This document shows positions 1,177-63,078 of a DNA stretch of 64,000 nt, in pieces. The first letter of the stretch is position 1. Each line of letters begins with the position of its first letter. The DNA lies in assembly GCA_032718475.1 (NCBI GenBank), contig JAUCBJ010002942.1, positions 22,802 to 86,801 of the forward strand. The letters are read 5' to 3'. The notes beneath the pieces are model-generated. The model saw only the letters and a list, made by a program, of their open reading frames with translations. It was not told where the DNA came from and did not search any database. The position numbers were made by a program, and so were the translations under genes. This DNA is from Nemertoderma westbladi (taxonomy: Eukaryota; Animalia; Xenacoelomorpha).

Positions 1177-1887
1177 TTACATATAGTTTTCTTTGATCTC
1201 GAACTTCTTTCTCACATCCTTCTTTGTTAAACAATCAGCCAATTGGTTAGTTCCTGCAACCAATTTAAATGACACGCGACCAAGTTCGAATAGTTCTCTT
1301 AGTATTCCCATTTCGATCATTAAACGCTTATCACAGAGTACATTAGTGGTTTGAATTGCGGTATGTAATGATTTGTTGTCGGTGTAACAAATTATCGGTA
1401 TAGAAACATCAATAATGTTTTCAATAATTTTCGATAAGAAAATTGCCTCCTCAACACCGTCTACACATGCCAAGGTTTCTGCAGCTAATGTAGATTTAAC
1501 AACCCGTCGAACTTTAGCAGATTTCCATGTCAATAAACCATTCAACTGAACCTCTCCAAATGGATATGATGATTGGGTGGAACAGTTGCTTGTTTCTTGA
1601 CCATTGTTTACTGTAGCTAAAAATATCATATATCCACCTTGAGAAGAGAAACCAACTGCATTACCAAGTGAAGCATCTGTAAATACTGCTAATGCTGCAC
1701 TTGAAGGTTTAAAGTAGGTAGTATCAAATTGCAGACCAGCAGCTAATGATTGTTTGGCTTTACGAATTACCTTATTGAGGTACTTAGCATCACCAACTAT
1801 AGGATGCTTTGCCTGTGAACTTAGATAAGAAGCATCAAAACTTAAATCAGGGCGACTTTGATTGGCAAGCCATGATATAGCTCCTAC
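1177..1887 (-). pseudogene. Copia RT C-terminus/RNase H segment downstream of the premature stop
   Basis: FTDASL, WKSAKVRRVVKSTLAAETL, YTDNKSL, QLADCLTK motifs (ORF 1177-1629 plus in-frame upstream sequence). Confidence 0.88.
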
Positions 1888-3843
1888 TCATGTTCGATAA
1901 TCAGAGATTTCATTTGATGTTAATGGTCTATCAACTTCAGCATATTGCGAGATTGGAAGTTCTGTTAGAAGCTGAGCGTATCGAAATTGACTAATTTCAA
2001 TTTCATGATCGGTTTGTTTTACATCAATACCAAGATATTTAAAAGCCAGTGCTGCTGTTGAACGAATTTCAAATATACTACATATTTTCGCAACAATATT
2101 GTTCTTGAAGTATGAGTTACCTCCCCACAGGATATCATCAACATGAATGCATAACAACCCCTGAATTTCTCCATCTTTCTTATAATAAAACAAAGCTGGA
2201 TCCTCGGGACAAGCAGTCAATCCTAAATTCGTTAAGGTCCCCCGAAGTTTCATATACCATGCTCGTGGGGCATCATTTAGACCATACACAGTTTTCATTA
2301 ACTGCCAAACTCCATCTACCATAGCCTCTGGTGGTGGCTTCACGAATATTTCACGATCGATGGTGAAACCCTGTAAGAAAGCACACTTAATGTCGAGACT
2401 ATTTATTGTCCAACCGTATGATGAAATCAGAAACAACACGAGACGAATATTATCTTTATTACATGTAGGCGAATCTGTTCGACCACCAAACTGTTCTTCA
2501 AATCCCCGAACCACAAGGCGGGCTTTGACAACATCATTGCCATTAACAACTTTCTCTGTAATGACCCAGCGTGTAGACACAAGAGACTGACCAGAATATG
2601 GAACAACTTTCACAACACCTTGTTCCTTCCATGTACTTAACTCCTTTTCTTTAGCATCTTTCAATCCTGAAGTTACCGTAATCATTACCTCTTCATCATC
2701 AGGAACAATTTCATAATCCGAAACTTCATCTAGATTCACCCAAGATTTACCACTAGGCAATTCAATATTCCAACAGTTCCTATATTTACCACTTGCCTTA
2801 CCAGCTCGACTTAATATTCTTCCACAAATAACATTATCAGAATCGGTGTATTTAATACGTTGCCCAGCTTTAACATTACTATTTGCAACAATAGACACCC
2901 ATGGTTGTTTTCCACTTTCGGTTTCATTTGAACTATTATTAGTAGGCAACGTCATGTCATTATGATCATTGGCATTGCCGATATCATTGTCATCATCATC
3001 ACTATCATCAACAGATCTTCGCACAACATCACCATTATTAGAGTTTCGGACAATGCTTCCATCGCCATTATTTTTAACAACACTGTCATGTACATCATTT
3101 GTCAATCGTTCATTTGAATTATTGACTAAGCAAATTCGAGTTTTATGTACTCGAACTATAAACCCACCATGTCTCACATAAACACTTTGACCCTCAGAAC
3201 CTATCACAACTCCAGGTCCCTTCCATTCTTTGTGACCTTCTCGCTTGTAAAATACACGATCCCCATTTTCACACTGAAACTCAACCGCTCTAACATTATG
3301 CTTAAGTGCACGGCGCAATCTACTACTAGACTCATTTGCAATAAATTGTCTACGGGCCACATGCATCGCATTTAGGTTGTCTGCCACTACCTCACTCGTT
3401 GTCTTACCCTCCAAAGCAGCTATAGAACTATTCTCTAAAATTGGAATTTTTGGATTGAGTCCAATAGCAACCTGGCTCGGTGAGAAACCATGCACATTAG
3501 TCAAACTGTTTCGTGCAGCAACAGCCCAAGCAACAGCAATATTGAGATTTACATGACAATCTTGCATTATTTTAAGTACATCATCACCCAATACTGCATT
3601 CTGACGTTCACAGACTCCATTACTGAAAGGGGATTCTGCCGCAGTTGGTAATATCTCAATATTACAGTTATCAGCCATACTAACAAATTCGTCATTATAA
3701 AATTCTCCACCGTTGTCAGCCAAGACTTTATTTGGAACACCAAAATTTGAAATCCATCCAGTAAACATCCCTTGAATAACAGATTCAGGCTTTTTATTTG
3801 ATAAAACCGCAGCTGCACGGTAACGTGTTGCTAAATCCACCAT
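1888..3843 (-). CDS. Copia integrase core + reverse transcriptase (second segment)
   Basis: VDLATRY..ADNGGEF..SPFSNGVCER (DDE core); KARLVVRGFEE, LDIKCAFLQG, VYGLNDAPRAW, HVDD; premature TGA at 1888-1890 with the frame continuing (VGAISWLANQSRPDL). Confidence 0.92.
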   Translation of the reverse strand: MVDLATRYRAAAVLSNKKPESVIQGMFTGWISNFGVPNKVLADNGGEFYNDEFVSMADNCNIEILPTAAESPFSNGVCERQNAVLGDDVLKIMQDCHVNLNIAVAWAVAARNSLTNVHGFSPSQVAIGLNPKIPILENSSIAALEGKTTSEVVADNLNAMHVARRQFIANESSSRLRRALKHNVRAVEFQCENGDRVFYKREGHKEWKGPGVVIGSEGQSVYVRHGGFIVRVHKTRICLVNNSNERLTNDVHDSVVKNNGDGSIVRNSNNGDVVRRSVDDSDDDDNDIGNANDHNDMTLPTNNSSNETESGKQPWVSIVANSNVKAGQRIKYTDSDNVICGRILSRAGKASGKYRNCWNIELPSGKSWVNLDEVSDYEIVPDDEEVMITVTSGLKDAKEKELSTWKEQGVVKVVPYSGQSLVSTRWVITEKVVNGNDVVKARLVVRGFEEQFGGRTDSPTCNKDNIRLVLFLISSYGWTINSLDIKCAFLQGFTIDREIFVKPPPEAMVDGVWQLMKTVYGLNDAPRAWYMKLRGTLTNLGLTACPEDPALFYYKKDGEIQGLLCIHVDDILWGGNSYFKNNIVAKICSIFEIRSTAALAFKYLGIDVKQTDHEIEISQFRYAQLLTELPISQYAEVDRPLTSNEISDYRT

Positions 3844-5618
3844 ATGTAAAATAGGATGACCTGACCAGTTATAAATTTTAGATCAATAGCTAATCCTTCA
3901 TTGAATGTTGTTGCTAATGGTTGACAAACAACTGGACGAGGTGGTGCTCTACGGATTCGCTTACAAACTTCGCAATTATCTCTCACACAATGTAAGGCTT
4001 GTTCTAATTCCGAGCTCCAACACTCAGCACGCTTGAGTAAAGTGATAATACGTTTTGTGTCTGCATGTGCAAACTGTCTATGCAGCTTCAATGCAATATG
4101 TTTAACATCAGAATTCACATTTGATATTTGTTCGAGAAAATATGCCACATTTGAAGAACAATTAGGTGCAATATGTATACAAATATGCCCTGCTCTATTC
4201 CGAACTGGAGTGATTTCTTTACCCAACATGGTGATTGTTCCCTTTTCAAAATTCATATGTGTGCGAGCCTTTTGCATTGACTGTTTGCTTAATAACAAAG
4301 GAATATCACAATTCACGACTTCTGTAGAAATGAATATATTTTCATTTGCAATACATGCTGGAATTTTTACATTTTTTATCGAAGCTACTGATTCTCCAGA
4401 ACCAAATCGAAATTGTACTGAAGAATCCTTTTCAACAATGCGTTCTCTCTGCTCAGATGTTAGACTATCCAAGTAGCAGCTGTACCAAGTTGTACCACAC
4501 ACAGTACGACTGCAACCAGAATCCAATATCGCAAATCCCAATTCCTCAGCTACAAAATCTTCTTTATCCTCCCCAGTAAACAAAGTAATGTGAACCTCCT
4601 CGTGCTCGTACTCACCATCATCTACCTCTGTATTATAAACCCGTGTAACTTCTGGACAATCTCTCCTTAAATGAAACCTTGAACCGCACACAAAACAACC
4701 AGGATCAAAGTTTCCATTCCCTGAAAGACGATTTGTTGACGAAGTTGTGTTATTACTACCACCAAACTGCCGTCCAGGAACATTCCACTGCCGAAATGAA
4801 CCAGCTACTCCCCCACCACGCATCTGACTGTTGGTATTAAACTGACCAGTTGGACGGCCAAATCTATTACGTGGAATTCCCCCAAGTGCTCCGCGAAAAT
4901 ATCCGGACCCACCACCACCGTACTGCTGGCTAAATCCTCCTCGACGATATCCCGATTGCCCATAAAAAACTTCCGACATATCCGAGTGTTCATCGCCACC
5001 AACCGCTTCATTAACTTCTTCGAGTTTAATAATAGAGTCACCAACTTCCACCGGCGTTTTTGTTCGTTGATTCGCCAAACGCTTTAAAGTTTCACGCATC
5101 GCATCGTAGGTGAACCTATTTACCGTAGCCCTCACGAGTTGTTCCATTGGTTTCTCGAGATTACAACCCTTCAAAAGGCGATACGCCAGAACACCCTGTG
5201 GTAAGTGCATGTTATGTCCTCGAACTTTCGCATACAGATTGTCAAACTGAATCAAATAGTCATCCAGTTTATCATTCGGTTTACGCAAATAGCTCTCAAA
5301 ATTCTCGTAGGCTTCGAACGCCCTTTCATCCTCACTTTTTAAATACAACTTGTCCAACAGTTCGAGAACTTCTTGAAAACCAGTAACTGATGTTAATATA
5401 TCTTGCTCGATCTCCATTGCTGCAACTTTCGCTTTTCCCGTAAGCGATAAAACTAGTGCTGAACCCAATTGATTCTGTTTCAATGACGTTACAGTCTTCC
5501 ACAAAGCAACCTCTTTCTTCCATGTGCTATAATTTGCTGTATCTAATACCGGTGGAACTTTCAAAGAATCAGCCGACGCTCTGCTACCAATGTTAGAATT
5601 AGAACTCATTTTAAACAT
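3831..5618 (-). CDS. Copia gag-protease-integrase N-terminus (first segment of a disrupted polyprotein)
   Basis: CX2CX4HX4C knuckle (CFVCGSRFHLRRDC), protease ILDSGCS, integrase HHCC (LHRQFAH..CEVC); ends at a frameshift caused by the 5-bp duplication at 3857-3866. Confidence 0.9.
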   Translation of the reverse strand: MFKMSSNSNIGSRASADSLKVPPVLDTANYSTWKKEVALWKTVTSLKQNQLGSALVLSLTGKAKVAAMEIEQDILTSVTGFQEVLELLDKLYLKSEDERAFEAYENFESYLRKPNDKLDDYLIQFDNLYAKVRGHNMHLPQGVLAYRLLKGCNLEKPMEQLVRATVNRFTYDAMRETLKRLANQRTKTPVEVGDSIIKLEEVNEAVGGDEHSDMSEVFYGQSGYRRGGFSQQYGGGGSGYFRGALGGIPRNRFGRPTGQFNTNSQMRGGGVAGSFRQWNVPGRQFGGSNNTTSSTNRLSGNGNFDPGCFVCGSRFHLRRDCPEVTRVYNTEVDDGEYEHEEVHITLFTGEDKEDFVAEELGFAILDSGCSRTVCGTTWYSCYLDSLTSEQRERIVEKDSSVQFRFGSGESVASIKNVKIPACIANENIFISTEVVNCDIPLLLSKQSMQKARTHMNFEKGTITMLGKEITPVRNRAGHICIHIAPNCSSNVAYFLEQISNVNSDVKHIALKLHRQFAHADTKRIITLLKRAECWSSELEQALHCVRDNCEVCKRIRRAPPRPVVCQPLATTFNEGLAIDLKFITGQVILFYIWWI

Positions 5619-5765
5619 TAAACTTATTGCTGTATTTTAATAACTAAACTTTACTGCTATCAGCACGTGCGCAATGCAATACATATTCACCAGTCACCAA
5701 CCTAACTAACTCACAACAATACAGTAGGCACAAACTAACACAAGCATAATACTGCAGTACTCACA
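5591..5765 (-). repeat. 5' LTR of Copia element
   Basis: Identical to 922-1096; followed on minus strand by tRNA-Met-type PBS at ~5578-5589. Confidence 0.96.
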
Positions 5766-22400: not shown

Positions 22401-24703
22401 TTGAACTAAAAAAAAAAAGCAAGTCAACATATTGCATGATGGAAATTCAGTGGTTTGGAAGAACTTTCACATCATCCGGTGTGGCAGCGGACAGAAACAA
22501 AATCGATTTAATTATTGAAAGGTGCCAACCAGCAACCATAGAAGACATAAGGTCATTCTTAATGGCATGCCAATATAATGCTAAGTTTACGTTTGATCAT
22601 CCTGCAATCCCCGAATCATATGCAGAGCTAACAAAACCATTAAGGGATCTTCTAAAAAAAGATTCCCACTTTAATTGGAAGGAAGAAAAAGAACGAGCAT
22701 ATGCAAAGTTGACAACGATAATGAACACGTTGACCACTCTGTGACCTTACGACCCGCTCAAAAAGTCACACTATTTAGCAGATGCATCAGAAGAGGAAAT
22801 GCAAGCACGATAATGAACACGTTGACCACTCTGTGACCTTACGACCCGCTCAAAAAGTCACACTATTTAGCAGATGCATCAGAAGAGGAAATACAAGCGA
22901 GTCTCTATCAGGAAGAAAGTACAGGAAACTGGATACCAGTTGACCATACAAGTCGAGCACTCACCCCAACTGAGCACAACTACAGTCCCATAGAAAGGGA
23001 AAGTTTAGCACAGACCTGGGGCATGGAACAGTTCAGATGCTACCTCGTTGGCGCAACTTGCACAGCCTGGACCGATCACCAACCTATAGTTCAGATATAT
23101 AACAATACCAATAAGCCAACCGTGAAACGTATATCTCGTCTAAGAGACCGCATACAGGATCTCAAGTTCACAATGAAATACCTGCCAGGAAAGCAGATGC
23201 CTTGTGATCATGGCAGCAGACACCCCAATCCAATAAACCACTTAGTCATTGAAACTCAAGAGAAACTCGGATTTGATATTGGAACAGAAATATCTGTACG
23301 CAAACTTGCTTTCAGCAATTAACCAGATGAAATAACTCAGGCACAACTAGAATCAGCTGCAAAACAAGATAAAGTCTATTCAAAAGCAATACACGCAGTT
23401 AAAAGGGGAAAAGAGAATGAAGTCCATAGCGCCTTCAAACAAATATGGTATGAACTCAGCATAATTGAAGGAATATTACACCGAGGAAATAAACTCATCA
23501 TTCCAGATGCGGAATCCTTCCCAGGTTCAGGAAATCTGCAGAAGACAATAATAGACGTAGCTCATGAGGGACACCCATGCATAAATACAATGAAAAGACA
23601 CTTGCTTGAGAAGGTTTGGTTTCCTAACATGGACTCAATGGTGGAAGACAGGGTAGAAAAATGTCTCGGATGTCAGGCCACAACACCCTCCAAACAAAGA
23701 GACCCCCTCATACCAACCAAACCACCTCACTCTCCCTGGGAGAAATTATCTGCTGATCACTGGGGCCCCACTCCAGATTGGAAATACATTCTCATGGTGA
23801 TCGATGAACTGTCAAAGTATCCCGAGGTAGTTATAGTAAAGGGAACAAGTGCAAATGATAATATAGCTGCTTTTGATAGCATATTCTCTAGACATGGTTT
23901 CTGCAAATCTTTAAAGACAGAAAATGGACCTCCTTTTAATGGAGGCGACTCACACCCGCTCCAGCAATACTTCAAGTGAGCAGGAATCAGCCACCATCCA
24001 ACACAGCCCAGATGACCCAGAAGCAAATGGGTTAGCAGAAGCCTTCATGAAGCACTGCACCAAAATTTGGCACTCATCCATCATAGAACACCGTGAACCA
24101 CAGGCTGAATTAAACAAACATCTCAGAATGTTTCGATCTACACCGCATCCAACAACCGGTCTCTTACCAGCAGAGGTGCTATTCGGTTGGAAAATGAGAA
24201 ATCGACTACCGCAGCTAATGAGGAACGAAAGTAGACAGGACAACGAAGTTGAGAAAGCCAAAGAGAAGTCGGAAACTGAAAAGACCAAACAGAAGGCACA
24301 TAAGGATAACAAACCATATGTCCGTGGTCACAGAATAGAGGTCGGAGACGAAATACTTTTCCAACAGAGGAAAACGAAAACTGATCCACCATATGATCCC
24401 AATTCCTACATAGCCACAGCTGTAATGGGGCATCAAATAAAAGGTAGACGGTATTCGAGAGAAATAACTAGGGATGCCCAGCGTTGGAAGAAAGTCAAAG
24501 TTGAACCTACCATCGATTACGATCAAATACGTATCAACGAGTTGCATCAACATCTCAATCAATATGGAAGTGACGATGAGATTGATCAGTCGAAGCACTT
24601 CTGTGCGACCAATCAAAACTCAGTGGTACCTGATGATCCCTCAAATCCAGAACCCAGGCGCTCTAATCGAGAACGGAGACAGCCAGACTGGTACAGGCCT
24701 TGA
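19500..24703 (+). mobile_element. Decayed Ty3/Gypsy retrotransposon internal region (gag-PR-RT-RH-IN)
   Basis: YTDTGS protease, RT (DMGWGFLQL, RLYFGPTSSSGIF), RH (TDHQP), IN (WFPNMD..CLGCQ, ADHWGP, ENGPPF, PEANGLAE); many stops and frameshifts; no LTR pair recognised. Confidence 0.9.
20685..21408 (-). mobile_element. 5'-truncated RTE-like LINE family B inserted into Gypsy protease
   Basis: (TAG)n tail; YFADD, FQYLGSWI, VFLYGGETWTLT; 12-bp TSD agggca(t/g)gggga at 20673-20684 and 21409-21420. Confidence 0.9.
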
Positions 24704-24879
24704 GAGGACTCTATGGACTCGAGCACCAAGACTCTATACATAGAAACCGTTTACTTGTGTCAGAGGTATCACTATTGTGTTTTTTACATTTGGTTGAGGG
24801 TAAATTTCATGCAAGTGTAACATGGTCCCTTTTTAGTGATTAAGATACAGTCTTTCGTAAGTCTGATACTGACAGAAAC

Positions 24880-24992
24880 CTATTTGTATTTGATACTTGA
24901 TACGGGTACTACATCGTATCTACATGATTCATTACAGATGGGTATAGCTGGTATAGCTTGAATTTCTTCTTTCTTTGGAAGTTCAAGTTGTT
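24880..24992 (-). CDS. Possible exon of an unidentified minus-strand gene
   Basis: Branch-point-like ctgac + pyrimidine tract + AG at 24993-25010; frame QLELPKKEEIQAIPAIPICNESCRYDVVPVSSIKYK*; no homology recognised. Confidence 0.3.
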
Positions 24993-25169
24993 CTAAGGGA
25001 AGCGTCAGTAGTTCTAAAGATAAACGTCAGTAATTCTAAAGAGAAGCTTTTGTAGTTCTAAATAAATAAATTGGAGTTGAGCTGTTAATGCAACTGTAAT
25101 TAAAGATGTAATATTATGGTTTTGTTCAGAAATGGAAAAATGAGAAAGCGCGTCACCGGGGGTTGAACC

Positions 25170-25215
25170 AGCGCTATACGTACGTTTCAGCCTATCAGGC
25201 CTCATCAGTAGCGCT
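25170..25215 (-). ncRNA. Type I hammerhead ribozyme (perfect helix I)
   Basis: AGCGCUA-CUGAUGA-G GCCU GAU AGGC U-GAAA-C GUAC GUA^UAGCGCU: complete catalytic core, 7-bp helix I, helix II, short helix III with palindromic GUAC loop, GUA cleavage triplet. Confidence 0.88.
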
Positions 25216-25648
25216 AACCAGTTCAGCCACTTGTCCCTGACATTCACATCCCACCTAATCAACTTCTATTGAACAGGCAGTCTTAAGTTGCATATCCTAT
25301 CTCGAACACCGGACCTACCGGCCTCAAGTATGTTAGAGTGAAACAGGAGGAAAGTACAAATAAATAAATATTCAGCTCGAGTCAGCTCGACAAAACCATA
25401 ATATTACATCTTGAATTACAGTTGCATTAACAGCTCAACTCCATTTTATTTATTTAATATCACCTGGCAGCAATACTCGAGCTGAATATTTATTTATTTG
25501 TACTTTCCTTTCCTCCTGTTTCACTCTCTAACATACTTGAGGCCGGTAGGTCCGGTGTTCGAGATAGGATATGCAACTTAAGACTGCCTGTTCAATAGAA
25601 GTTGATTAGGTGGGATGTGAATGTCAGGGACAAATGGCTGAACTGGTT

Positions 25649-25694
25649 AGCGGTACTGATGAGGCCTGATAGGCTGAAACGTACGTATAGCGCT
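25649..25694 (+). ncRNA. Type I hammerhead ribozyme (one helix I mismatch)
   Basis: AGCGGUA-CUGAUGA-GGCCUGAUAGGCU-GAAACGUACGUA^UAGCGCU; predicted cleavage after 25687. Confidence 0.82.
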
Positions 25695-26944
25695 GTTTCA
25701 TCCCCCGGTGACGCGCTTTCTCATTTTTTCCATTTCTCAACAAAACCATAATATTACATCTTGAATTACAGTTGCATTAAAAGCTCAACTCCAATTTATT
25801 TATTTAATATCACCTGGCAGCAATACTCGAGCTGAATATTTATTTATTTGTATTTTCCTCCTGTTTCACTCTAACATACTTGAGGCCGGTAGGTCCGCTG
25901 TTAGAGATAGGATATACAACTTAAGACTGCCTGTTCAATAGAAGTGGATTAGGTGGGATAGTGAATGTCAGGGACAAGTGGCTAAACTGGTTAGCGTTCT
26001 AAAGATAAACCTCAGTCGTTCTAAAGAGAAATGTCAGTAGTTCTAAAGAGAAACCTTATTAGTTCTAAAGAGGAACCTCAGTCGTTCTAAAGAGAAATGT
26101 CAGTAGTTCTAAAGAGAAACCTCATTAGTTCTAAAGAGGAACCTCATTCGTTCTAAAGAGAAATGTCAGTAGTTCTAAAGAGAAACCTCATTAGTTCGAA
26201 AGAGGAACCTCAGTCGTTCTAAAGAGAAATGTCATTAGTTCTAAAGAGAAATGTCATTAGTTCTAAAGAGGAACCTCATTCGTTCTAAAGAGAAATGTCA
26301 GTAGTTCTAAAGAGAAACCTCATTAGTTCTAAAGAGGAACCTCAGTCGTTCTAAAGAGAAATCTCATTAGTTCTAAAGAGAAATGTCATTAGTTCTAAAG
26401 AGAGACGTCAGTAGATCTAATGAGAAACGTCAGTAGATCTAATGAGAAACGTCAGTAGATCTAAAGAGCTTGGATAGATAAGATGAATAGGTAGTCTACT
26501 TTTATTATGTAACGTACTACAATCTCCAGTTGTGTGCAATGGTATATATACTATTACATATTAAGAGGTACCTTTGTTTTTTTATTTATCACTGTAGATA
26601 GATTCCACTGCTGCGTAATCAAAATGTACAGTAAAATATACAATTTTATAGTTAGTAATTGTGCAAAATAGTTTTTAGAACATCATTTTATATTTATACA
26701 ACCACTTATTGAAAAACAAACGTTTTTGATGTACCACATTATATTATTATAATGAATAACAATTTATATTTTCATGTCATTTTATAAAATTAATAGTATA
26801 TCAGTCATCAGTAATTTGAATATAAATTTATTATTTGGTATCATAGCAGTCGATTCTAGATTTTGTTTAAGAGGGGTCGTCATTTCCCATATAATTGTTT
26901 TTTGTTTAAGAGGGGTCGTCATTTCCCATATAATTGTTTTTAGT

Positions 26945-29500
26945 TTAAGAGGGGTCATCATATCCCACAGAATCTTTTTTCATCTTCCTATAATGTTTTG
27001 ATGTTATGATGAGAAACACCATGGCAACAATGGTTGAAACAGCGATCCACCCAGTAGCGAACCACATCCCGTTGATTGTTGTCAGTGTTCCAGAACATAT
27101 GGATCCAGCCACACCCCGGTAAACATTCCATATTGGCAAACATTTGGCAAACTCTGTTTTTATCACCGAATCCTTGTCAGCCAGCACATGGTTCATGAAG
27201 GCACCGAGGTAGCCTTGGAAATCAGTTAGGATTGTATCAAAAACTGGGCAATTATTTGTAGCTGGACATTTGGCTATTAAACCAGCTTTCTCGCCATCTA
27301 GATTCGCCTTGAACGTTGTTGTTTGTGTCTTGAATATGCCTGATGCTGTAGTATAAGCGTCATACGCGGTCTTTGCTGCATCTTTCTTACTTTTCGCTGT
27401 TGCCCCTTCAATAGTTGCGATACTCAACAGACTGGCATATATCGGATCAACTTCTACATTTTTCTCCCCATGAGCTCCACCAGGACTGATAGTGAAATCC
27501 ATCACTTTTCCGACAATAGTTGCAGCGGGGGCGGCGCCATCAGCAAATTCAATTCCATCGCCCAGTGCATTACAATCAGTAACTGGTGTATGGTGAGTAG
27601 CTAAGTCAACACATTCCCCATAATTAAAGATGCCTTTAATTGCAAATTGATTGAAAATAGAAATGAAAAGGGGAGGGGTACCCGTTTCAATTGTATTTAA
27701 ATTATCAAACACAGGGTCCCCAGCTGAGCCATATATATTTGGTGAACCTGCTAAAAAAGTAACCAGTGACGATTTGGCTGCATCAAAGCCACTCGAGGCC
27801 TGGCCCATTATCGCCGCAGGGTCTATGGTTGATTCAATAGATTTCATTGCATCCATGTTTCCTAACGACAGCGCTTCATAAATACCTTTGTTTTCTTTGC
27901 ATCCGTTAATCGTGTTTAAAATTCCGCCACCAGGGACAATACCAGCCAGCGGGTCAGGAAAGGCTGGGGGATTTCCACTAAAAATGTCTTCAATAATTTT
28001 TCCTGATTCTAGATCCGAGCAAATCGCAGAGAATGGAACTAATATGGTAAATGGCATGACTGTGAGGAACATGAGTAGCCAAACAATGAATACTCCAAAT
28101 ATTATGGCAATTGGCATCATCAAACATCCACCACAGTCGCTCAACATGTTACGTTTGGTGGGTTTAACTTTTCGGTAGCCAATAAGGCCTAGCAGAAATC
28201 CAACCAATGATAACACTGGTATAAGAGCACCAAGGGCGAATAGGCCCAGTCCTATATAAGTCCGATATGGATCTATGGCACCTATGCTGTCACCTATTGA
28301 TGATACCTGTTGGAACATATCAAACATGGAATTCATGCTATCTATTGATGATGTCACAGATGTTAACATGCTGCTGATGTCTACATTGTCAATGGCGGTT
28401 TTGGCAGTCGCAATTCCAGCGGTAACTTGTGTATGTATATCTCCACCATATGTATCTGCAATCGATTTAAACGTTGGAGCAGGTGGTGTAGTAATCGAAT
28501 TCACAGTCGGAATACTTAATGGCATTATTGAAGTCATTGAAGTTAAACTCTTCAGAGGTTCTATAACGGGATTTTTTAGAGTGGCACAACATGCCAATCC
28601 TGTTATTTTGTCCGTTTCGGTTTTAATCTTCATCAGGGCATCATTGTACGCCGTCATGTAATCAGTGTATTTTGTCATAAAATCATCGAAACTAGCTTGA
28701 AACGTTTTGGCTTCTGCCGTGTAGGTATTCACATGGGTATCTATCGCAGAAACAGATACAAGTAGCGGGTTAGCTAAAACAACGCCAGTTTCATCTAATT
28801 TGATTTTAAACCAATTTTTGAAGTCGCTGAACTGAGTGCCAAGAAGCCACTCGAGTTGACTTACAGTGTTGGTTACGAAACTCATCATGTCAGAAGGAAC
28901 ATCTGTTCCTAGGACTTGCAGCAGGTTTGATGGAACTTGAGCTGTCATCACCTCATTGTTCTTGTAAGCGAGAGCAGCTCCTGTCAACGCGATAACAAGA
29001 ACACCGATTGTTATCAATGTCAACACCAAGCAGATGAGAAAATTTGAATCGCTTTGCTTCATATTACCACCACACTTTCCGCAACATCTACAACAACAAA
29101 ATGCCGAGCAAATTGGACACCAGAAAGTGATTACCAGAATTCCTAAAGCAACTCCTATAAGGTATCCAAGGAATGATACCACTTGTTTCTGTAGCAGTGG
29201 CATGATTTTGCTTGAATCAATTCCACCACCATTCATCATCGGACCCACAAGATCAGTCATGATGTCTTTTGTGGGAAGCTCTTTAATTGACATGGAAACC
29301 ATTAGGTTTACCATATCGTAGTACGGTGCCATGGAGCCAAAATCGTTCGTTAATGTCTCGTCTGTGAGCTTGTAGGCTTTCTCTGGAGATGGAAGCGGGG
29401 CGAAGACAGGATTACCAGCTGCATCACTGGTTACTGTCGTGGATGAAACGGTTGCAGCCATTGTGGCAACTAAACATATTGAAAACCACTGAGTCCCCAT
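26945..29500 (-). CDS. Prominin-family pentaspan membrane glycoprotein, intronless, copy 1 (851 aa from MGTQWF)
   Basis: Signal peptide, five hydrophobic segments, CCCRCCGKCGG after TM1, two large extracellular loops, KCLPIWNVY..IC..INGMWF before TM5; start inferred from copy 2. Confidence 0.88.
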   Translation of the reverse strand: MGTQWFSICLVATMAATVSSTTVTSDAAGNPVFAPLPSPEKAYKLTDETLTNDFGSMAPYYDMVNLMVSMSIKELPTKDIMTDLVGPMMNGGGIDSSKIMPLLQKQVVSFLGYLIGVALGILVITFWCPICSAFCCCRCCGKCGGNMKQSDSNFLICLVLTLITIGVLVIALTGAALAYKNNEVMTAQVPSNLLQVLGTDVPSDMMSFVTNTVSQLEWLLGTQFSDFKNWFKIKLDETGVVLANPLLVSVSAIDTHVNTYTAEAKTFQASFDDFMTKYTDYMTAYNDALMKIKTETDKITGLACCATLKNPVIEPLKSLTSMTSIMPLSIPTVNSITTPPAPTFKSIADTYGGDIHTQVTAGIATAKTAIDNVDISSMLTSVTSSIDSMNSMFDMFQQVSSIGDSIGAIDPYRTYIGLGLFALGALIPVLSLVGFLLGLIGYRKVKPTKRNMLSDCGGCLMMPIAIIFGVFIVWLLMFLTVMPFTILVPFSAICSDLESGKIIEDIFSGNPPAFPDPLAGIVPGGGILNTINGCKENKGIYEALSLGNMDAMKSIESTIDPAAIMGQASSGFDAAKSSLVTFLAGSPNIYGSAGDPVFDNLNTIETGTPPLFISIFNQFAIKGIFNYGECVDLATHHTPVTDCNALGDGIEFADGAAPAATIVGKVMDFTISPGGAHGEKNVEVDPIYASLLSIATIEGATAKSKKDAAKTAYDAYTTASGIFKTQTTTFKANLDGEKAGLIAKCPATNNCPVFDTILTDFQGYLGAFMNHVLADKDSVIKTEFAKCLPIWNVYRGVAGSICSGTLTTINGMWFATGWIAVSTIVAMVFLIITSKHYRKMKKDSVGYDDPS

Positions 29501-30136
29501 ATTTTTTTGCACAAAAAATAAATTATATTGTGTGCTGATTGTTAACATTTATCATATCTGACAAAAAATTAATAAAGTTGTGAGCTGATTAAACTCGAGA
29601 ACTGACATTTATATGACTTAATTAATGGGAGTATTTATCAGGTATATAACAATCTCCTGATGGTTGAATGTGAACTTAGGTTAATCCAAGCCTAAATAAT
29701 TACTACTATTACTATATACCGGTTAATTGAAAAATTAACCAGAAATGCCAACGATAGCCGAGTTTAGCTAATTAGAAAATTAATTTATTGTACTGAATTA
29801 ATTAGTGAGCCTATGGCTAAGTAACAAATAATTTCAATTCACTCCCATAGATTAAACAAAGAGTCTGTGATATAAGTTTATTAATCCACATCACGATGTG
29901 TAGATTTTTACAGCACAATACGACTATTGTTCAACCTTCTTTTGTTATTCAAGATATTAGGTTCACTCCAATGTACGATAAAGATCCATACATAGAACAC
30001 ATTAGTTATAGGATTACTAATATTACCAAAGATGTATAGATAAATACAATTGGAGCGACACAGATTACAAGAAAAAAATACAAAGGGGTTCTGGCGTCAT
30101 TTTCTCAAACTTAACCATACGGTGTTATAGTAAACA

Positions 30137-34892: not shown

Positions 34893-37448
34893 TTAAGAGG
34901 GGTCGTCATATCCCACAGAATCTTTTTTCATCTTCCTATAATGTTTTGATGTTATGATGAGAAACACCATGGCAACAATGGTTGAAACAGCAATCCACCC
35001 AGTAGCGAACCACATCCCGTTGATTGTTGTCAGTGTTCCAGAACATATGGATCCAGCCACACCCCGGTAAACATTCCATATTGGCAAACATTTGGCAAAC
35101 TCTGTTTTTATCACCGAATCCTTGTCAGCCAGCACATGGTTCATGAAGGCACCGAGGTAGCCTTGGAAATCAGTTAGGATTTTATCAAAAACTGGGCAAT
35201 TATTTGTAGTTAGACATTTGGCTATTAAAGCAGCTTTCTCGCCATCTAGATTCGCCTTGAACGTTGTTGTTTGTGTCTTGAATGTGCCTGATGCTGTAGT
35301 GTAAGCGTCATACGCGGTCTTTGCTGCATCTTTCTTACTTTTCGCTGTTGCCCCTTCAATAGTTGCGATACTCAACAGACTGGCATATATCGGATCAACT
35401 TCTACATTTTTCTCCCCATGAGCTCCACCAGGACTGATAGTGAAATCCATCACTTTTCCGACAATAGTTGCAGCGGGGGCGGCGCCATCAGCAAATTCAA
35501 TTCCATCGCCCAGTGCATTACAATCAGTAACTGGTGTATGGTGAGTAGCTAAGTCAACACATTCGCCGTAGTTTAACGTTGAAGTAATTAATGTTTGAGC
35601 TGCAGCATCAATGAAAAGGGGAGGGGTACCCGTTTCAATTGTATTTAAATTATCAAAAACAGGGTCCCCAGCTGAGCCATATAGATTTGGTGAACCTGCT
35701 AAAAAAGTAACCAGTGACGATTTGGCTGCATCAAAGCCACTCGAGGCCTGGCCCATTATCGTCGCAGGGTCTATGGTTGATTCAATAGATTTCATTGCGT
35801 CCATGTTTCCTAACGACAGCGCTTCATAAATACCTTTGTTTTCTTTGCATCCGTTAATCGTGTTTAAAATTCCGCCACCAGGGACAATACCAGCCAGCGG
35901 GTCAGGAAAGGCTGGGGGATTTCCACTAAAAATGTCTTCAATAATTTTTCCTGATTCTAGATCCGAGCAAATCGCAGAGAATGGAACTAATATGGTAAAT
36001 GGCATGACTGTGAGGAACATGAGTAGCCAAACAATGAATACTCCAAATATTATGGCAATTGGCATCATCAAACATCCACCACAGTCGCTCAACATGTTAC
36101 GTTTGGTGGGTTTAACTTTTCGGTAGCCAATAAGGCCTAGCAGAAATCCAACCAATGATAACACTGGTATAAGAGCACCAAGGGCGAATAGGCCCAGTCC
36201 TATATAAGTCCGATATGGATCTATGGCACCTATGCTGTCTCCTATTGATGATACCTGTTGGAACATATCAAACATGGAATTCATGCTATCTATTGATGAT
36301 GTCACAGATGTTAACATGCTGCTGATGTCTACATTGTCAATGGCGGTTTTGGCAGTCGCAATTCCAGCGTTAACTTGTGTATGTATATCTCCACCATATG
36401 TATCTGCAATCGATTTAAACGTTGGAGCAGGTGGTGTAGTTATTGAAGATACAGAAGTAATGGGAATCGGGCTCACTGCAGTCATAGAAGTTAAACTTTT
36501 CAGAGGTTCTATAGCGGAATTTTTTAGAGTGGCACAACATGCCAATCCTACTATATTGTCCGTTTCGGTTTTAATCTTCGCCAGGGCGTCATTGTACGCC
36601 GTCATGTAATCAGTGTATTTTGTCACAAAATCGTCGAAACTAGCTTGAAACGTTTTGGCTTCTGCCGTGTAGGTATTCACATGGGTATCTATCGCAGAAA
36701 CAGATACAAGTAGCGGGTTAGCTAAAACAACGCCAGTTTCATCTAATTTGATTTTGAACCAATTTTTGAAGTCGCTGAACTGAGTGCCAAGAAGCCACTC
36801 GAGTTGACTTACGGTGTTGGTGACGAAACTCATCATGTCGGAAGGAACATCTGTTCCTAGGACTTGCAGCAGGTTTGATGGAACTTGAGCTGTCATCACC
36901 TCATTGTTCTTGTAAGCGAGAGCAGCTCCTGTCAACGCGATAACAAGAACACCGATTGTTATCAATGTCAACACCAAGCAGATGAGAAAATTTGAATCGC
37001 TTTGCTTCATATTACCACCACACTTTCCGCAACATCTACAACAACAAAATGCCGAGCAAATTGGACACCAGAAAGTGATTACCAGAATTCCTAAAGCAAC
37101 TCCTATAAGGTATCCAAGGAATGATACCACTTGCTTCTGTAGCAGTGGCATGATTTTGCTTGAATCAATTCCACCACCATTCATCATCGGACCCACAAGA
37201 TCAGTCATGATGTCTTTTGTGGGAAGCTCCTTAATTGACATGGAAACCATAAGGTTTACCATATCGTAGTACGGTGCCATGGAGCCAAAATCGTTCGTTA
37301 ATGTCTCGTCTGTGAGCTTGTAGGCTTTCTCTGGAGATGGGAGCGGGGCGAAGACAGGATTACCAGCTGCATCACTGGTCACAGTCGTGGATGAAACGGT
37401 TGCAGCCATTGTGGCCACTAAACATATCGAAAACCAGCGAGTTCCCAT
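34893..37448 (-). CDS. Prominin-family pentaspan membrane glycoprotein, intronless, copy 2 (851 aa)
   Basis: Same architecture as copy 1; ~33 amino-acid differences by manual comparison. Confidence 0.88.
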   Translation of the reverse strand: MGTRWFSICLVATMAATVSSTTVTSDAAGNPVFAPLPSPEKAYKLTDETLTNDFGSMAPYYDMVNLMVSMSIKELPTKDIMTDLVGPMMNGGGIDSSKIMPLLQKQVVSFLGYLIGVALGILVITFWCPICSAFCCCRCCGKCGGNMKQSDSNFLICLVLTLITIGVLVIALTGAALAYKNNEVMTAQVPSNLLQVLGTDVPSDMMSFVTNTVSQLEWLLGTQFSDFKNWFKIKLDETGVVLANPLLVSVSAIDTHVNTYTAEAKTFQASFDDFVTKYTDYMTAYNDALAKIKTETDNIVGLACCATLKNSAIEPLKSLTSMTAVSPIPITSVSSITTPPAPTFKSIADTYGGDIHTQVNAGIATAKTAIDNVDISSMLTSVTSSIDSMNSMFDMFQQVSSIGDSIGAIDPYRTYIGLGLFALGALIPVLSLVGFLLGLIGYRKVKPTKRNMLSDCGGCLMMPIAIIFGVFIVWLLMFLTVMPFTILVPFSAICSDLESGKIIEDIFSGNPPAFPDPLAGIVPGGGILNTINGCKENKGIYEALSLGNMDAMKSIESTIDPATIMGQASSGFDAAKSSLVTFLAGSPNLYGSAGDPVFDNLNTIETGTPPLFIDAAAQTLITSTLNYGECVDLATHHTPVTDCNALGDGIEFADGAAPAATIVGKVMDFTISPGGAHGEKNVEVDPIYASLLSIATIEGATAKSKKDAAKTAYDAYTTASGTFKTQTTTFKANLDGEKAALIAKCLTTNNCPVFDKILTDFQGYLGAFMNHVLADKDSVIKTEFAKCLPIWNVYRGVAGSICSGTLTTINGMWFATGWIAVSTIVAMVFLIITSKHYRKMKKDSVGYDDPS

Positions 37449-38361
37449 ATTTTTTGACAGAAAGTTCGATAAATTATGTCGCCTGATTTATCAATATACT
37501 ATGGTTCAACTTTAACTATTCAAAGTTTAAAGAAAATCCAGTAGGATGGATAACTATAAGTAAGCGCTGGTTTATTGGGGGTAATTATAGAAATATGTAG
37601 CCAAGTTTAATTCAACCATGTTATAGTCGAAGTTGACGGCTTATTGGAATTAGGGGTTATTGGAATTATGAACTATGCATAGAATTCCGTCCTATCATGC
37701 CAAAAGTTTCACAAGTGCTTTTTGATGACGTATGCATATTGGTTGACACATGTGTGCTACCTACATGGTCATAATTGTTCAAACTTGATCGCCCCGGGAC
37801 ATGAAAGCCATGATGGTGACTGATTGGTGACTAACTGCAATGCAATAGACATAACTAATCGCGATCTTGTTTTTGATACAGTATGTTGTCATCTATTTAT
37901 AAAATAATATACTTTATTCCACAATATTTATTAGTATTAATAGCGAGGTGTTTATTTAGCATATTAACACAATAGACTACAATAAAGCAAAACACAATAA
38001 TTATATAATATATTCAATGGTTAGGTAGACTTTACTGGTAGAAGAGATAGCTCCTTTATGACTATTGTACCACCTGTTTTCCTTTTACCTATTCCTAACA
38101 GAGAGGATTCATTGATCCACATCACTCGTATTCAATATATTTTGTTGTTTTTGTTATTTTTACAGAGAGAAATAAAGGAAACAAAATTGAAAGGGGCTAG
38201 GGTTGAACACAAATCAATGTTCCCGGCGGGAGTGGGGAATCATTAAGGGGACATGGTACCCTGCAAATTTTCACAAAAAACTTTTTTTATCAAAAAATGT
38301 TTTTTATTGAATCAAGGTCAAAAATTTTCGTAGATTACACAAATTGAAACCTTGAAGTCAT

Positions 38362-51588: not shown

Positions 51589-52320
51589 TCAGATTTTAAA
51601 TGGCGGAAGACCCCACAGCTCCGGTACGAATTCATCCAGAGACTGTAGAATCTGTGCGGCCATTCCCCGACACACATCGGCACCCGTCCGGCTGTCCGGA
51701 ACCCAAACGCACGGCATTCCGGCCGCTCGGGCCGCTAGGACACCGTTAGGAGCGTCCTCGAATACCAACACGGAGCTGGGATCAACCGGGGGACGAGCGA
51801 AGCGAGCCGACGCAACGAGAAAGCAATCCGGAGCGGGTTTACCTGCGACGACTTCCGGGTCGCTTCCACTGTAAACCATATGCGAGAACATTGAGAAGAG
51901 ATTGGAGTGGCGGGATGACTTAAGGAGATAAAGTTCCTTAGAGGAACCGGTAGCCATTGCAATGGGAATACCGTGTTCGTACAGATGACTGACCAATCGC
52001 AATGCTCCCGGCAGGACGTCGCAATGCGGAAAAAGAAGATCTAACTTTTGTTTTTTGATGGCGGCGAATTGTTCAACCGGGACAGGGATATTCAACTGTT
52101 CCATTATTATTTGGTTGGCCTCGCTAGCTTTGCGGCCCATACAACGTTGTTTGAGGTCCCATGTATAGGACTCCGGCGGAACTCCACACTCACCTATTGC
52201 TGCCGCAATGCCCTCACTATAAAGGCGTTCCGTATCTAATAGCAACCCATCCATATCGAATATAACATGGGTAATGTTACCAAGGGAACGTTCACTACCA
52301 CCCATATTGGATGTTGCCAT
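51589..52320 (-). CDS. PUDP: Pseudouridine-5'-phosphatase (HDHD1/GS1-like HAD hydrolase), intronless CDS
   Basis: HAD motif I FDMDGLLLDTE, ATGS, GKPAPDCFL, FEDAPNGV, family-typical C-terminus FVPELWGLPPF; 243 aa intact. Confidence 0.9.
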   Translation of the reverse strand: MATSNMGGSERSLGNITHVIFDMDGLLLDTERLYSEGIAAAIGECGVPPESYTWDLKQRCMGRKASEANQIIMEQLNIPVPVEQFAAIKKQKLDLLFPHCDVLPGALRLVSHLYEHGIPIAMATGSSKELYLLKSSRHSNLFSMFSHMVYSGSDPEVVAGKPAPDCFLVASARFARPPVDPSSVLVFEDAPNGVLAARAAGMPCVWVPDSRTGADVCRGMAAQILQSLDEFVPELWGLPPFKI

Positions 52321-60765: not shown

Positions 60766-62077
60766 CTAAGGACTTCAGAGGCTGCAAATATTTATTATCT
60801 ACAATAATAATTATAGTGAGTAATCTTGTATGGCGTCTCTTTAGGGTCAATATTCAGTGTTTTAATATTTTTTATTCAGTATAAATTTACATTCAGTAAT
60901 AATTAATATCTTTCAGTCGTTCTACAATATCTTTTAGTAATTAATAAATTATCGTTCAGTAATACTGAATTATCTTTCAGTATTTACTGAATTATCTTTC
61001 AGTATTTACTGAATTATCTTTCAGTATTTACTGAATTATCTTTTCAGTATTTACTGAATTATCTTTCAGTAATACTTAATTATCTTTCAGTAACGTATTT
61101 ATCTTTCAGTGATTATCTTTCAGTAATACTTAATTATCTTTCAGTAACGTATTTATCTTTCAGTGATTATCTTTCAGTATTTGCAATAGCATATCAGTAT
61201 AAAATCACTCGTTATAATAAATTCCGTATAAATTCCTTTATCTCTCTATTGAATTCAATAGGCCAATCACAAAAAAGGCATATTCTAGAATATATAATGT
61301 TAATTTACGAAAACTGTCGACGGTGCAGTATGGCCTATGCAGTATGAAGTTACACTAGGCTACACAGTTTGTTGTTAGTTATGTATTAGCGTGATATATT
61401 TAATTAAGTGTAAGAAACTGAGGAAGAATAAACTGCAATGCCGCGTTTTTGTGGAGCATGTGGTTCAGCAAATTAACTGAATTTCTGTACTAGTTGCGGT
61501 CGTTCTCTTTTAGTGGATGATACTCCCACCATTCACAATCGCAATCTAAACGAGAATACAAATCCATCGACCTCGCCACCACCTATGCCAAATGCGTTTA
61601 CAGTAGATTCGGTAAGGGAAGCTGTCCGAGCGGAATTGTCGACTAGTTTCTCCCCTTATAGAATTCAAGTTCCGGCAAATTCGCCTACAATGTTTAACGC
61701 TGCTGCGAATTCGGTACCTCGCTCCGGCACAGCGGGCGGTTCTAGACGGAGAGTTACTAGCCGGGTTCCGTTGGGAGGCCGTCGACAAGGTCGTCCTTCT
61801 ACAGAACCGTTAAGTATAACACGTGACCTGCGTATTCTTCGAGCCGCTTCATCTGAACTTGAAACCGATTCTAGAATTCTCTACCTGGAAGTTCGCCCTT
61901 CTAACCTTTGAAGTGAATGACTCTAAAGAAGTAATAAGACAAAAAATTTCCAAAATTCTAGAACAGGCGGAGGCTCCAAAGTTCTCGGAAAATGACTTCA
62001 ATTTCGTTAAGGTAGTTAGCTGAATAGTTATAGTTTTGCCCTTTGGGAAGGTTGATTTTAAAATTTCACCAGTAAAC

Positions 62078-62842: not shown

Positions 62843-63078
62843 GTAAACCCATCACCAGTACAGGAACTTTCAAACACTAATAACAAACACTAACTTTCAC
62901 ACTGTCAAACGCTAATACATAACTAACATATATATATATATATATAATTCTTTAATAAAAAGCATATTTTTGCATGCTGAAATGGATGCACAAACTAATA
63001 AAATAGACATACAGTAAAATATCGATATGCATCGAAAACTAAAATAATTAATGATATGTGTATCGCTTCAAATTTGGT

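What the first reader, a model, noticed from the sequence alone, without database searches (positions are those of the whole stretch)
25147..25730. Hammerhead ribozyme placed between Pol III A- and B-box-like motifs in a 350-bp repeat
Seen: each unit reads gggacaag-TGGCTGAACTGG(A-box-like)-tt-[AGCGCTA CTGATGA GGCCTGATAGGCT GAAA CGTACGTA TAGCGCT]-GGTTCAACCC(B-box-like)-ccggtgacgcgc..TTTTT. The complete hammerhead core sits where a tRNA anticodon/variable arm would be. The box sequences can also pair with each other (UGAACU/GGUUCA), extending helix I and leaving a GGUU bulge 7 bp from the core. Established: tandem ~170-400-bp type I hammerhead repeats (non-LTR retrozymes, Schistosoma Sm-alpha, newt satellite 2) yield self-cleaved monomers and, for retrozymes, circRNAs. 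Inference: a self-promoting, self-cleaving tRNA/ribozyme chimera in which the promoter and helix I are the same nucleotides; I do not recognise this arrangement from described elements.
Basis: partly seen in the sequence, partly recalled or inferred. Interest (0 to 1): 0.85.

Follow-up and report, generated by a model that had tools for sequence, protein, structure and literature searches.

The report
Hammerhead retrozyme built inside a tRNA
An abundant 350-base non-coding repeat of an animal carries a complete hammerhead (self-cutting RNA) motif in the middle of what is likely a former asparagine tRNA gene, so that the tRNA's promoter boxes flank the motif and are predicted to form part of it, which would give this kind of jumping RNA a promoter of its own and may record a ribozyme arising out of a tRNA.

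Summary
At 25241-25136 (minus strand) a complete type I hammerhead lies between exact A- and B-box matches and is followed by T5. The plus copy has a broken B box and a helix I mismatch; a third copy stops before the core. The arms are head-to-head in a 938-bp insert inside a 22-bp minisatellite. Public contigs show a many-copy family whose common variants spare the catalytic core and the B box. New here: the region aligns to eukaryote-type tRNA-Asn(GUU) (58 of 74 positions; 1 of 5000 box-fixed shuffles score as high). Helix I uses the tRNA's D-arm strand, and helix II plus the core GAAA map onto the anticodon arm (moderate support). Best reading: a non-LTR retrozyme with an internal, tRNA-Asn-derived Pol III promoter that is split by self-cleavage and rejoined only in circles or multimers, likely mobilised by a Penelope-like element. 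Against: T5/T6 right after the B box should stop Pol III, and cleavage, transcription and circles are untested. The scan noted this layout twice before in this genome; Sm-alpha has promoter then hammerhead, not nested. New variant of a known kind.

The parts
25059..25996 (.). whole insertion (938 bp): inverted arm, 3-nt linker, direct arm
25059..25382 (-). inverted arm, 0.93 of a unit, the intact copy; ends in a (TTTA)n tract with 4-nt overlap to the left flank
25386..25996 (+). direct arm, about 1.75 units at 350-bp period; full but damaged copy, then a copy cut off inside helix I
25151..25241 (-). tRNA-Asn(GUU)-derived region (tRNA positions 1-73) with two insertions that complete the hammerhead
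25218..25229 (-). A box (tRNA T8-G19); positions 12-17 predicted to pair with the B-box strand
   Evidence: common variant at 25222 keeps a purine
25209..25216 (-). helix I 5' strand, palindromic TAGCGCTA; its first six bases equal the tRNA-Asn D-arm 3' side
25202..25208 (-). hammerhead core CUGAUGA (C3-A9)
   Evidence: only position 7 varies above 1% in the two deep runs
25185..25201 (-). helix II, loop II and core GAAA; aligns to tRNA-Asn positions 30-44 (anticodon arm)
25178..25185 (-). helix III, 2 bp plus tetraloop, perfect 8-nt palindrome (dimer duplex -9.8 kcal/mol)
25176..25177 (-). predicted cleavage site after GUA (3' of 25177)
   Evidence: predicted, not tested
25170..25176 (-). helix I 3' strand, a direct repeat of the palindromic 5' strand
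25160..25169 (-). B box (tRNA G52-C61)
   Evidence: no variant at 1% or more in runs X1 and X3, one at 1% in X4
25136..25140 (-). T5 run (T6 in about a quarter to a third of read depth), terminator-like, 10 nt after tRNA position 73
25635..25729 (+). second A box / hammerhead / B box / T6, damaged at 25653 (helix I), 25696 and 25701 (B box); predicted cut 3' of 25687
25979..25996 (+). third A box and start of helix I, truncated
25055..25062 (+). left copy of candidate 8-bp target duplication GTTCTAAA (also the minisatellite's own octamer)
25996..26003 (+). right copy of candidate 8-bp target duplication
24986..26468 (+). 22-bp minisatellite array (24986-25062 and 25996-26468) interrupted by the insertion

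Best explanation
This is one head-to-head insertion of a many-copy, non-coding 350-bp repeat of an animal whose complete type I hammerhead motif sits inside a sequence likely derived from a tRNA-Asn(GUU) gene; the retained A and B boxes likely recruit RNA polymerase III, the RNA is predicted to cut itself after GUA, and multi-unit or circular RNA is likely copied back into DNA by a Penelope-like element. Steps. (1) Shown: motif, boxes, family abundance, tRNA-Asn similarity. (2) Inferred: TFIIIC binds the boxes and Pol III starts near 25241; most transcripts would end at the T5/T6 run as a ~105-nt RNA cut into ~65 + ~41 nt, and a read-through fraction (or host Pol II read-through) would reach the next unit's hammerhead and release ~345-nt monomers. 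(3) Follows from the layout: the cut falls between the boxes, so a linear monomer carries B at its 5' end and A at its 3' end; only a circle or an uncut multimer presents A before B, so only such templates give promoter-bearing new copies. (4) Inferred: target-primed reverse transcription from both DNA strands, one primer pairing with the RNA's (UUUA)n tract, gave the inverted and direct arms. Odds by step: retrozyme-type element 0.85; tRNA-Asn ancestry of the flanks 0.85; boxes used by Pol III in active copies 0.6; Pol III itself makes the unit-length RNA 0.35; Penelope-like helper 0.65; helix II descends from the anticodon arm 0.45.
For: Hammerhead: all core bases, 7-bp helix I, 4-5-bp helix II, palindromic helix III, the architecture given for canonical metazoan type I motifs in PMC4209133. 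Family: 2069, 3170, 1806 and 147 contig records laid in 4 of 4 runs, at most 3 samples; joints from 25382 to 25059 with the missing 18-22 nt show head-to-tail copies elsewhere. The 6 sites at 1% or more in run X1 over about 25158-25204 are the 11.1 base (60%, restoring G10.1-C11.1), loop II, two loop III bases, core position 7 and 25158; none is a catalytic base or in the B box. Boxes: only pair in the window, 0 of 20000 flank shuffles, 24 of 400000 with a forced 6-bp extension; 0 of 50 natural phage type I-like hammerheads have both boxes. tRNA-Asn: an element-derived pattern hit tRNA-Asn(GTT) in 17 of 17 viral loci; flank score 56 for the best Asn gene against mean 32.5, sd 5.0, max 44.5 for 30 other host-like tRNAs; 58 of 74 identities, 1 of 5000 box-fixed shuffles as high. 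A-box 12-17 pairs 6 of 6 with the B strand against 4 of 6 in 4 of 4 Asn genes; the changes are at free A-box positions and none on the B strand. Insertion: inverted truncated copy next to a partial tandem is the typical Penelope-like layout (PMC8557442); retrozymes are proposed to be non-autonomous PLE derivatives (bioRxiv 10.64898/2026.07.22.740005); both arms span the cut site, so the template was not a cut linear monomer.
Against: A T5/T6 run sits 10 nt after the tRNA end and is kept in the family; four or more T is the standard Pol III stop in human (PMC3141230 abstract, which reports read-through mainly at degenerate signals). The 3' flank alone separates Asn narrowly (26.5 against 25 for Pro and Cys). 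The window copy's core, locally aligned, does not single out Asn (67 of 139 other tRNAs score as high) and its GAU loop fits bacterial-type Ile as well; the GUU loop is about 50% of depth in X1 and X3 but 7% in X4, so it may be derived. A-box conservation is only partly tested: one search hid 73 rows and one search did not reach the A box. The helix I extension is only 0.26-0.35 probable and the MFE fold is not the hammerhead. A deep subfamily in X4 has a 4-nt insertion between helix I and the core. The arms are a mosaic (minus vs first plus copy 1 substitution, vs last copy 6), which a single monomer circle would not give. One unit folded as a circle is no more stable than shuffles (z -0.1). 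The target duplication cannot be told from the minisatellite's own repeat.
Confidence: 0.58

Rival explanations
1. Ordinary promoter-less retrozyme with a tRNA fossil: the tRNA-Asn piece was captured once and is now kept only as RNA structure (helix I and its extension); transcription is host read-through.
For: T5/T6 would stop Pol III before the rest of the unit; A-box 12-17 and the B strand pair 6 of 6, which alone could conserve them; PMC7761336 states that retrozymes seem to lack promoters; a young family is conserved nearly everywhere.
Against: Changes that made the pairing fell on free A-box positions and none on the B strand; unpaired T8-C11 still fit the consensus; the common A15G variant keeps the purine; a diverged X4 subfamily changes several trailer bases but none in the B box.
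Confidence: 0.25
2. Self-cleaving SINE-like unit: Pol III makes only the ~105-nt tRNA-like RNA ending at T5/T6, which cuts itself; it has no role in making circles, and the repeat spreads from read-through transcripts or as DNA satellite.
For: The layout A box, B box, 10-nt trailer, T5 is that of a tRNA gene; no support for avoidance of T4 in the rest of the unit once the TTTA tracts are left out (621 of 3000 shuffles, 29 of 155 real stretches lack T4).
Against: Both arms carry the whole unit and cross the cut site; head-to-tail copies exist; related retrozymes give unit-length circles (PMC7229834).
Confidence: 0.12
3. Chance resemblance: an ordinary hammerhead repeat whose flanks happen to match degenerate box consensus strings.
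For: The motif was noticed after the fact in a very large scan; ARAGORN at default and Rfam RF00005 see no tRNA; the consensus strings are short.
Against: 0 of 20000 and 24 of 400000 in shuffles; isotype-level match beyond the boxes, 1 of 5000; 0 of 50 natural hammerheads.
Confidence: 0.05

Closest known systems
Metazoan non-LTR retrozymes (Cervera and de la Pena 2020, PMC7229834; review PMC7761336; Li, Clavereau and Pollet bioRxiv 10.64898/2026.07.22.740005)
   Same: Canonical type I hammerhead with weak palindromic helix III in a non-coding, AT-rich 150-450-bp repeat, many copies, head-to-tail arrays, Penelope-like insertion structure.
   Different: Described as apparently lacking promoters (PMC7761336); the 2026 preprint has no occurrence of 'promoter' or 'tRNA'. 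Here the hammerhead lies inside a tRNA-Asn-derived A/B-box pair.
Sm-alpha / Sj-alpha SINE-like hammerhead repeats of Schistosoma (Ferbeyre 1998 and Laha 2000, not read; seen through passages of PMC6765202 and PMC2770079)
   Same: tRNA-related Pol III promoter plus type I hammerhead in one short repeat; multimers needed because cleavage separates promoter from body.
   Different: There the promoter is followed by the hammerhead (PMC6765202, Fig. 6G legend) and the head is scored as tRNA-Gln-TTG (PMC2770079). Here the hammerhead replaces the middle of the tRNA, cuts between the boxes and shares bases with tRNA-Asn.
Pseudo-LTRs of Penelope-like elements (PMC4209133, PMC8557442, PMC11167929)
   Same: Type I hammerhead in a repeat that forms partial tandems with an inverted truncated copy; AT-rich or satellite targets.
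   Different: No RT/GIY-YIG frame next to it in the window; full helix III rather than the minimal motif; promoter described for Penelope is not tRNA-type.
Helenus TRIMs with tRNA-derived LTR promoter (Kojima 2024, PMC10886601)
   Same: Non-autonomous retroelement carrying a tRNA-derived putative Pol III promoter inside its repeat.
   Different: LTR elements with PBS and PPT and 4-5-bp duplications; no ribozyme.

Membership tests
Metazoan non-LTR retrozyme | canonical type I hammerhead | tested here: met
   architecture as in PMC4209133. Rfam score below gathering.
Metazoan non-LTR retrozyme | non-coding repeat of 150-450 bp, many copies, tandem, GC under 50% | tested here: met
   350-bp period; head-to-tail joints and thousands of contig records; no frame of 150 aa over it; GC 0.41 for 24001-26000
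Metazoan non-LTR retrozyme | no LTR, PBS or PPT | tested here: inconclusive
   no LTR-type layout in the insertion; PBS and PPT were not searched
Metazoan non-LTR retrozyme | target duplication longer than 4 bp when present | tested here: inconclusive
   8-bp candidate is also the minisatellite's own octamer; empty site not seen
Metazoan non-LTR retrozyme | self-cleavage and unit-length linear and circular RNA | not testable with these tools
   needs transcripts; see Tried and rejected
Sm-alpha-type SINE with hammerhead | whole tRNA-derived promoter upstream of the hammerhead | tested here: not met
   hammerhead lies between A and B
Sm-alpha-type SINE with hammerhead | transcribed by Pol III | not testable with these tools
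   sequence fit only
Functional tRNA gene | cloverleaf accepted by tRNA finders | tested here: not met
   ARAGORN 0 at default, 95% and 90% thresholds, a call only at 80%; no RF00005 match at E 10
tRNA-Asn(GUU)-derived sequence | best match among isotypes beyond the universal box bases | tested here: met
   reference genes are from other eukaryotes and giant viruses, not from this organism, and cover 21 other isoacceptor labels
Penelope-like element pseudo-LTR | adjoins an RT plus GIY-YIG frame | tested here: not met
   no such frame beside the insertion in this window; no genome held to look elsewhere
Penelope-like element pseudo-LTR | partial tandem with inverted truncated copy at the 5' end | tested here: met
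   description in PMC8557442

The most novel reading that the evidence does not exclude
A hammerhead ribozyme arose in place out of a tRNA-Asn gene: the D-arm strand became helix I by duplication of a palindrome, the last two anticodon-stem pairs and the anticodon loop became helix II, the tRNA's own G41-A44 became the catalytic GAAA, and free A-box positions were tuned to pair with the B box, leaving a working Pol III promoter that the ribozyme cuts in two and that only circularisation or multimers restore. It would be a natural, traceable independent birth of a hammerhead and a self-promoting animal retrozyme.
Probability: 0.35. Interest if true: 0.88.

Novelty: new variant of a known kind. 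Interest (0 to 1): 0.66.

Why it matters
Two open questions become testable on a 100-nt construct. First, how animal retrozymes reach high expression without a known promoter: here B-box mutations can be made that keep or break the RNA helix separately. Second, whether hammerheads arise repeatedly from cellular RNAs: the ancestor proposed here is a named, conserved tRNA, so intermediates can be sought among subfamilies and sister species. The split promoter also gives a simple reason why circular or multimeric templates would be favoured.

Tried and rejected
No whole genome is held, so no genome-wide copy alignment or covariation count. Sequencing runs: no RNA holder listed; this says nothing about expression. 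Relatives outside this organism: 8 viral and 12 metagenome loci for hammerhead-then-B-box patterns and 22 viral loci for a D-arm-then-core pattern were read and none showed the nested layout; blastn against phages (3 records) and plasmids (8 records) gave only short chance matches. These collections hold little animal DNA. Avoidance of T4 in the rest of the unit looked significant (23 of 3000 shuffles) but vanished without the TTTA tracts (621 of 3000; 29 of 155 real stretches): dropped. tRNA-Thr(AGT) and Ile(TAT), recalled as rivals to Asn, scored 35 and 27 against 56; in that call one Asn gene (L107) scored last because the script misplaced its T arm. Rfam miRNA-precursor matches only reflect the inverted arms. 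A single monomer circle as sole template is disfavoured by the mosaic arms. Taxon: exact protein look-ups failed; an atlas search only placed a window protein among eukaryote pseudouridine-5'-phosphatases. Literature: ten searches listed no paper describing a hammerhead between A and B boxes or derived from tRNA-Asn; Ferbeyre 1998 is not held; the supplement of PMC7229834 could not be read and that of the 2026 preprint is closed, and both hold retrozyme sequences that may include this layout; six motif searches in the 11 readable supplements of PMC3088659 found nothing, but alignments there may be pictures.

Full report
1. What is in the sequence. The window is repeat-rich eukaryotic DNA; no genome is held. 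A 938-bp insertion, 25059-25996, interrupts a 22-bp minisatellite (24986-25062 and 25996-26468). It has an inverted arm (25382 to 25059, minus) and a direct arm (25386-25996) of about 1.75 units at a 350-bp period. The plus copy has a helix I mismatch (25653) and two B-box changes (25696, 25701); the third copy stops inside helix I. The 28-base core occurs twice, against 0 in 100 shuffles.

2. The hammerhead. The minus copy has every conserved core base, a 7-bp helix I (pair probabilities 0.63-0.95), helix II (0.80-0.98), and a 2-bp helix III whose 8 bases are a perfect palindrome able to pair between two units (-9.8 kcal/mol); the predicted cut is 3' of 25177. This is the canonical metazoan type I form of PMC4209133 (section 4 and passages read); palindromic helix III in repeat hammerheads is also in a supplement legend of PMC3088659 (passages). 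The minimum-energy fold is not the hammerhead, and Rfam gives only sub-threshold Hammerhead_3 matches, so activity is predicted, not shown.

3. The family. Eight runs were listed, four holding the unit, all of one coded organism. In 4 of 4 runs laid (at most 3 samples), 2069, 3170, 1806 and 147 contig records match; joints from 25382 back to 25059 carrying the missing 18-22 nt show head-to-tail copies elsewhere. Depth is no copy number, but this many distinct records means a large family. Over about 25158-25204, where the table is complete, run X1 has six sites at 1% or more: 25189 (60%, restoring the canonical G10.1-C11.1 pair), 25195 (50%, loop II), 25181 and 25183 (loop III), 25204 (core position 7, the free one) and 25158. 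X3 shows the same count by kind. No catalytic base and no B-box base reaches 1% in these two runs; X4 shows 21 sites, mostly near 1-10%, one at 1% in the B box. In the A box one search shows one common variant (25222, 25-51% in X1-X3), which keeps the purine at position 15 and a G-U pair; 73 rows were hidden and one search did not reach the A box, so A-box conservation is only partly tested.

4. Are the boxes chance? With recalled consensus strings (TRGYnnAnnnG, GWTCRAnnC) the window has 102 A and 12 B matches and one pair at 40-75 nt: this one, 61 nt apart. Shuffles: 33 of 20000 units hold a pair anywhere, 0 of 20000 around a fixed hammerhead, 24 of 400000 when a 6-bp extension is forced. Of 125 viral loci, 50 held type I-like hammerheads; 1 had an A box upstream, 0 a B box downstream.

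5. Which tRNA. An A-box-side pattern hit tRNA genes in 22 of 26 viral loci, of several isotypes. ARAGORN at an 80% threshold read loop II as an anticodon loop, and the common loop variant spells the Asn anticodon; I recalled that eukaryote tRNA-Asn resembles the element and tested it. A pattern made from the element's letters hit tRNA-Asn(GTT) in 17 of 17 viral loci, mostly giant-virus bins, and the same gene in 13 of 31 loci of prokaryote assemblies, the other 18 being non-tRNA. The human Asn-GTT primers in PMC8220392 (one passage) match that gene, which supports calling it eukaryote-type. That pattern selects for similarity, so the tests that count are the rankings. Among 157 scored tRNAs the six best flank scores are eukaryote-type Asn, and the 3' flank, which was not in the pattern, ranks them first too. 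Against 30 other host-like tRNAs of 21 isoacceptor labels (small contigs fetched; that they are eukaryote contamination is my inference) Asn scores 56, 53, 50, 47, 39 against mean 32.5, sd 5.0, max 44.5; on the 3' flank alone the margin is small, 26.5 against 25. The unchanged window copy matches the best Asn gene at 58 of 74 positions; 1 of 5000 shuffles with box bases fixed scores as high. The alignment puts tRNA position 1 at 25241 and 73 at 25151, then a 10-nt trailer and T5, like a tRNA gene.

6. How the ribozyme maps on the tRNA. The outer five bases of helix I's 5' strand are tRNA positions 21-25; the strand is a palindrome and the 3' strand is a direct repeat of it, so a short duplication is enough to make the helix (inference). 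Helix II and the core GAAA align to positions 30-44. CGAAA at 40-44 occurs in 17 of 158 tRNAs, all eukaryote-type Asn: the isotype chosen by the flanks is the one that already carries half of the hammerhead core in the right place. For helix II plus GAAA against Asn 30-44, 9 of 44 natural hammerheads score as high as the window copy, 1 of 44 when the majority 11.1 base is allowed and 0 of 44 when the loop variant is allowed too; simulated helices give 0.04-0.06 and 0.003-0.006. Against: the unanchored core test does not favour Asn (67 of 139 as high), GAU fits bacterial-type Ile as well (2-3 of 140), and GUU is rare in X4 (7%) and seen in fewer contigs (44 against 100 in X1), so it may be derived. 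I put descent of helix II from the anticodon arm at about 0.45; the alternative is a foreign hammerhead that replaced the arm. Lastly, A-box positions 12-17 pair 4 of 6 with the B strand in 4 of 4 Asn genes and 6 of 6 in the element; the changes are at positions 12, 13 and 16 or 17, all free in the consensus, and none is on the B strand. That fits double duty as promoter and helix, on small numbers; the extension is only 0.26-0.35 probable in the ensemble.

7. Mechanism. Inferred: Pol III starts near 25241. The cut lies between the boxes, so a released monomer begins with the B box and ends with the A box; only a circle or uncut multimer restores the order, which would favour multi-unit insertions such as this one. 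The main difficulty is T5/T6 at 25140-25136: four or more T is the usual Pol III stop, though read-through occurs at human tRNA genes (PMC3141230, abstract only). Most transcripts would then be about 105 nt, and unit-length RNA needs read-through or another polymerase. Apparent T4 avoidance in the rest of the unit did not survive controls. Insertion: the left end overlaps the flank by TAAA in the (TTTA)n tract, the right by one base, with an 8-bp candidate duplication that is also the satellite's octamer. An inverted truncated copy beside a partial tandem is the typical Penelope-like structure (PMC8557442, passages); Penelope protein nicks and extends both strands at AT-rich DNA, starting inside the RNA at a site not homologous to the target (PMC11167929, passages), so the microhomology here is not required by that model. 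Both arms cross the cut site, so the template was circular or uncut. The arms are a mosaic: minus and first plus copy differ by 1 substitution and share three letters rare in the family, the last copy differs by 6. A heterogeneous multimer, template switching or later conversion fits better than one monomer circle. An earlier scan note (e1-10596620) reports another hammerhead family of this genome joined to a LINE tail, so a LINE helper is not excluded; I did not test it.

8. Comparison. It works like a metazoan non-LTR retrozyme (PMC7229834, abstract, passages and parts 2 and 4 of 6 read; supplement unreadable) and meets the sequence features I could test; RNA features are untested. A 2020 review says such elements seem to have no promoter (PMC7761336, passages); the 2026 preprint linking them to Penelope-like elements does not mention promoters or tRNA (abstract, discussion, word search). 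Promoter plus hammerhead is known in Schistosoma Sm-alpha, as promoter followed by ribozyme with a tRNA-Gln-like head (PMC6765202 and PMC2770079, passages; primary papers not read). It fails membership there on order. Also seen: PMC10886601, PMC5680766 and PMC6309819 (passages; nothing on this layout). Ten searches listed no paper on a hammerhead nested between the boxes or derived from tRNA-Asn; the library lacks most subscription papers and Repbase-type entries. The scan noted the nested layout twice in this genome (e1-10653974, three units in 1028 letters, probably this family; e1-10614364, a 369-nt unit); these are unchecked notes, not independent support, and their visible text does not name a tRNA isotype.

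9. Verdict. Real feature, one intact copy here, part of an abundant family. New variant of a known kind. Interest 0.66: the class is known and a Pol III link has a precedent, but the nested, shared-nucleotide design and the mapping to tRNA-Asn are unusual and cheap to test. Most novel reading not excluded: birth of a hammerhead from tRNA-Asn with a working split promoter, probability 0.35, interest 0.88.

Noticed in passing
window 26945-29548 and 34893-37487 (-): Two near-identical intronless frames of about 850 aa, a tandem duplicate; they look like prominin-type membrane proteins (label recalled from the translation, not from a family search).
   Followed up: no
window 22837-24703 (+): Broken LTR-retrotransposon pol (RNase H and integrase-like frames, Gypsy-like by recall) ending about 350 bp left of the insertion; no link to the hammerhead repeat seen.
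   Followed up: no
window 1177-5636 (-): Copia-like gag-pol in three long frames (label recalled).
   Followed up: no
window 51589-52329 (-): Intronless frame most like eukaryote pseudouridine-5'-phosphatase.
   Followed up: partly
window 25373-25390: The junction of the two arms repeats an 8-nt word (CAGCTCGA), as from a template switch on microhomology.
   Followed up: partly
window 25059-25063: Many contigs end their match in the (TTTA)n tract with unrelated flanks (loose-end agreement about 0.4), suggesting a preferred priming point on the RNA.
   Followed up: no
window 25108-25233, run X4 record 30: A deep diverged subfamily with a 4-nt insertion between helix I and the core and a changed first helix I base pair region, B box unchanged.
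   Followed up: partly
window 60892-63856: Long inverted arms of 22-bp repeats (60892-61179 and 63497-63856) around 21-bp arrays; possibly a foldback or MITE-like element.
   Followed up: no
L376-L381, L387, L394: Small contigs inside bacterial genome assemblies carry clusters of eukaryote-type tRNA genes, likely host contamination.
   Followed up: partly
L245-L369: 50 type I-like hammerheads in 125 viral loci, many just upstream of what look like start codons.
   Followed up: no
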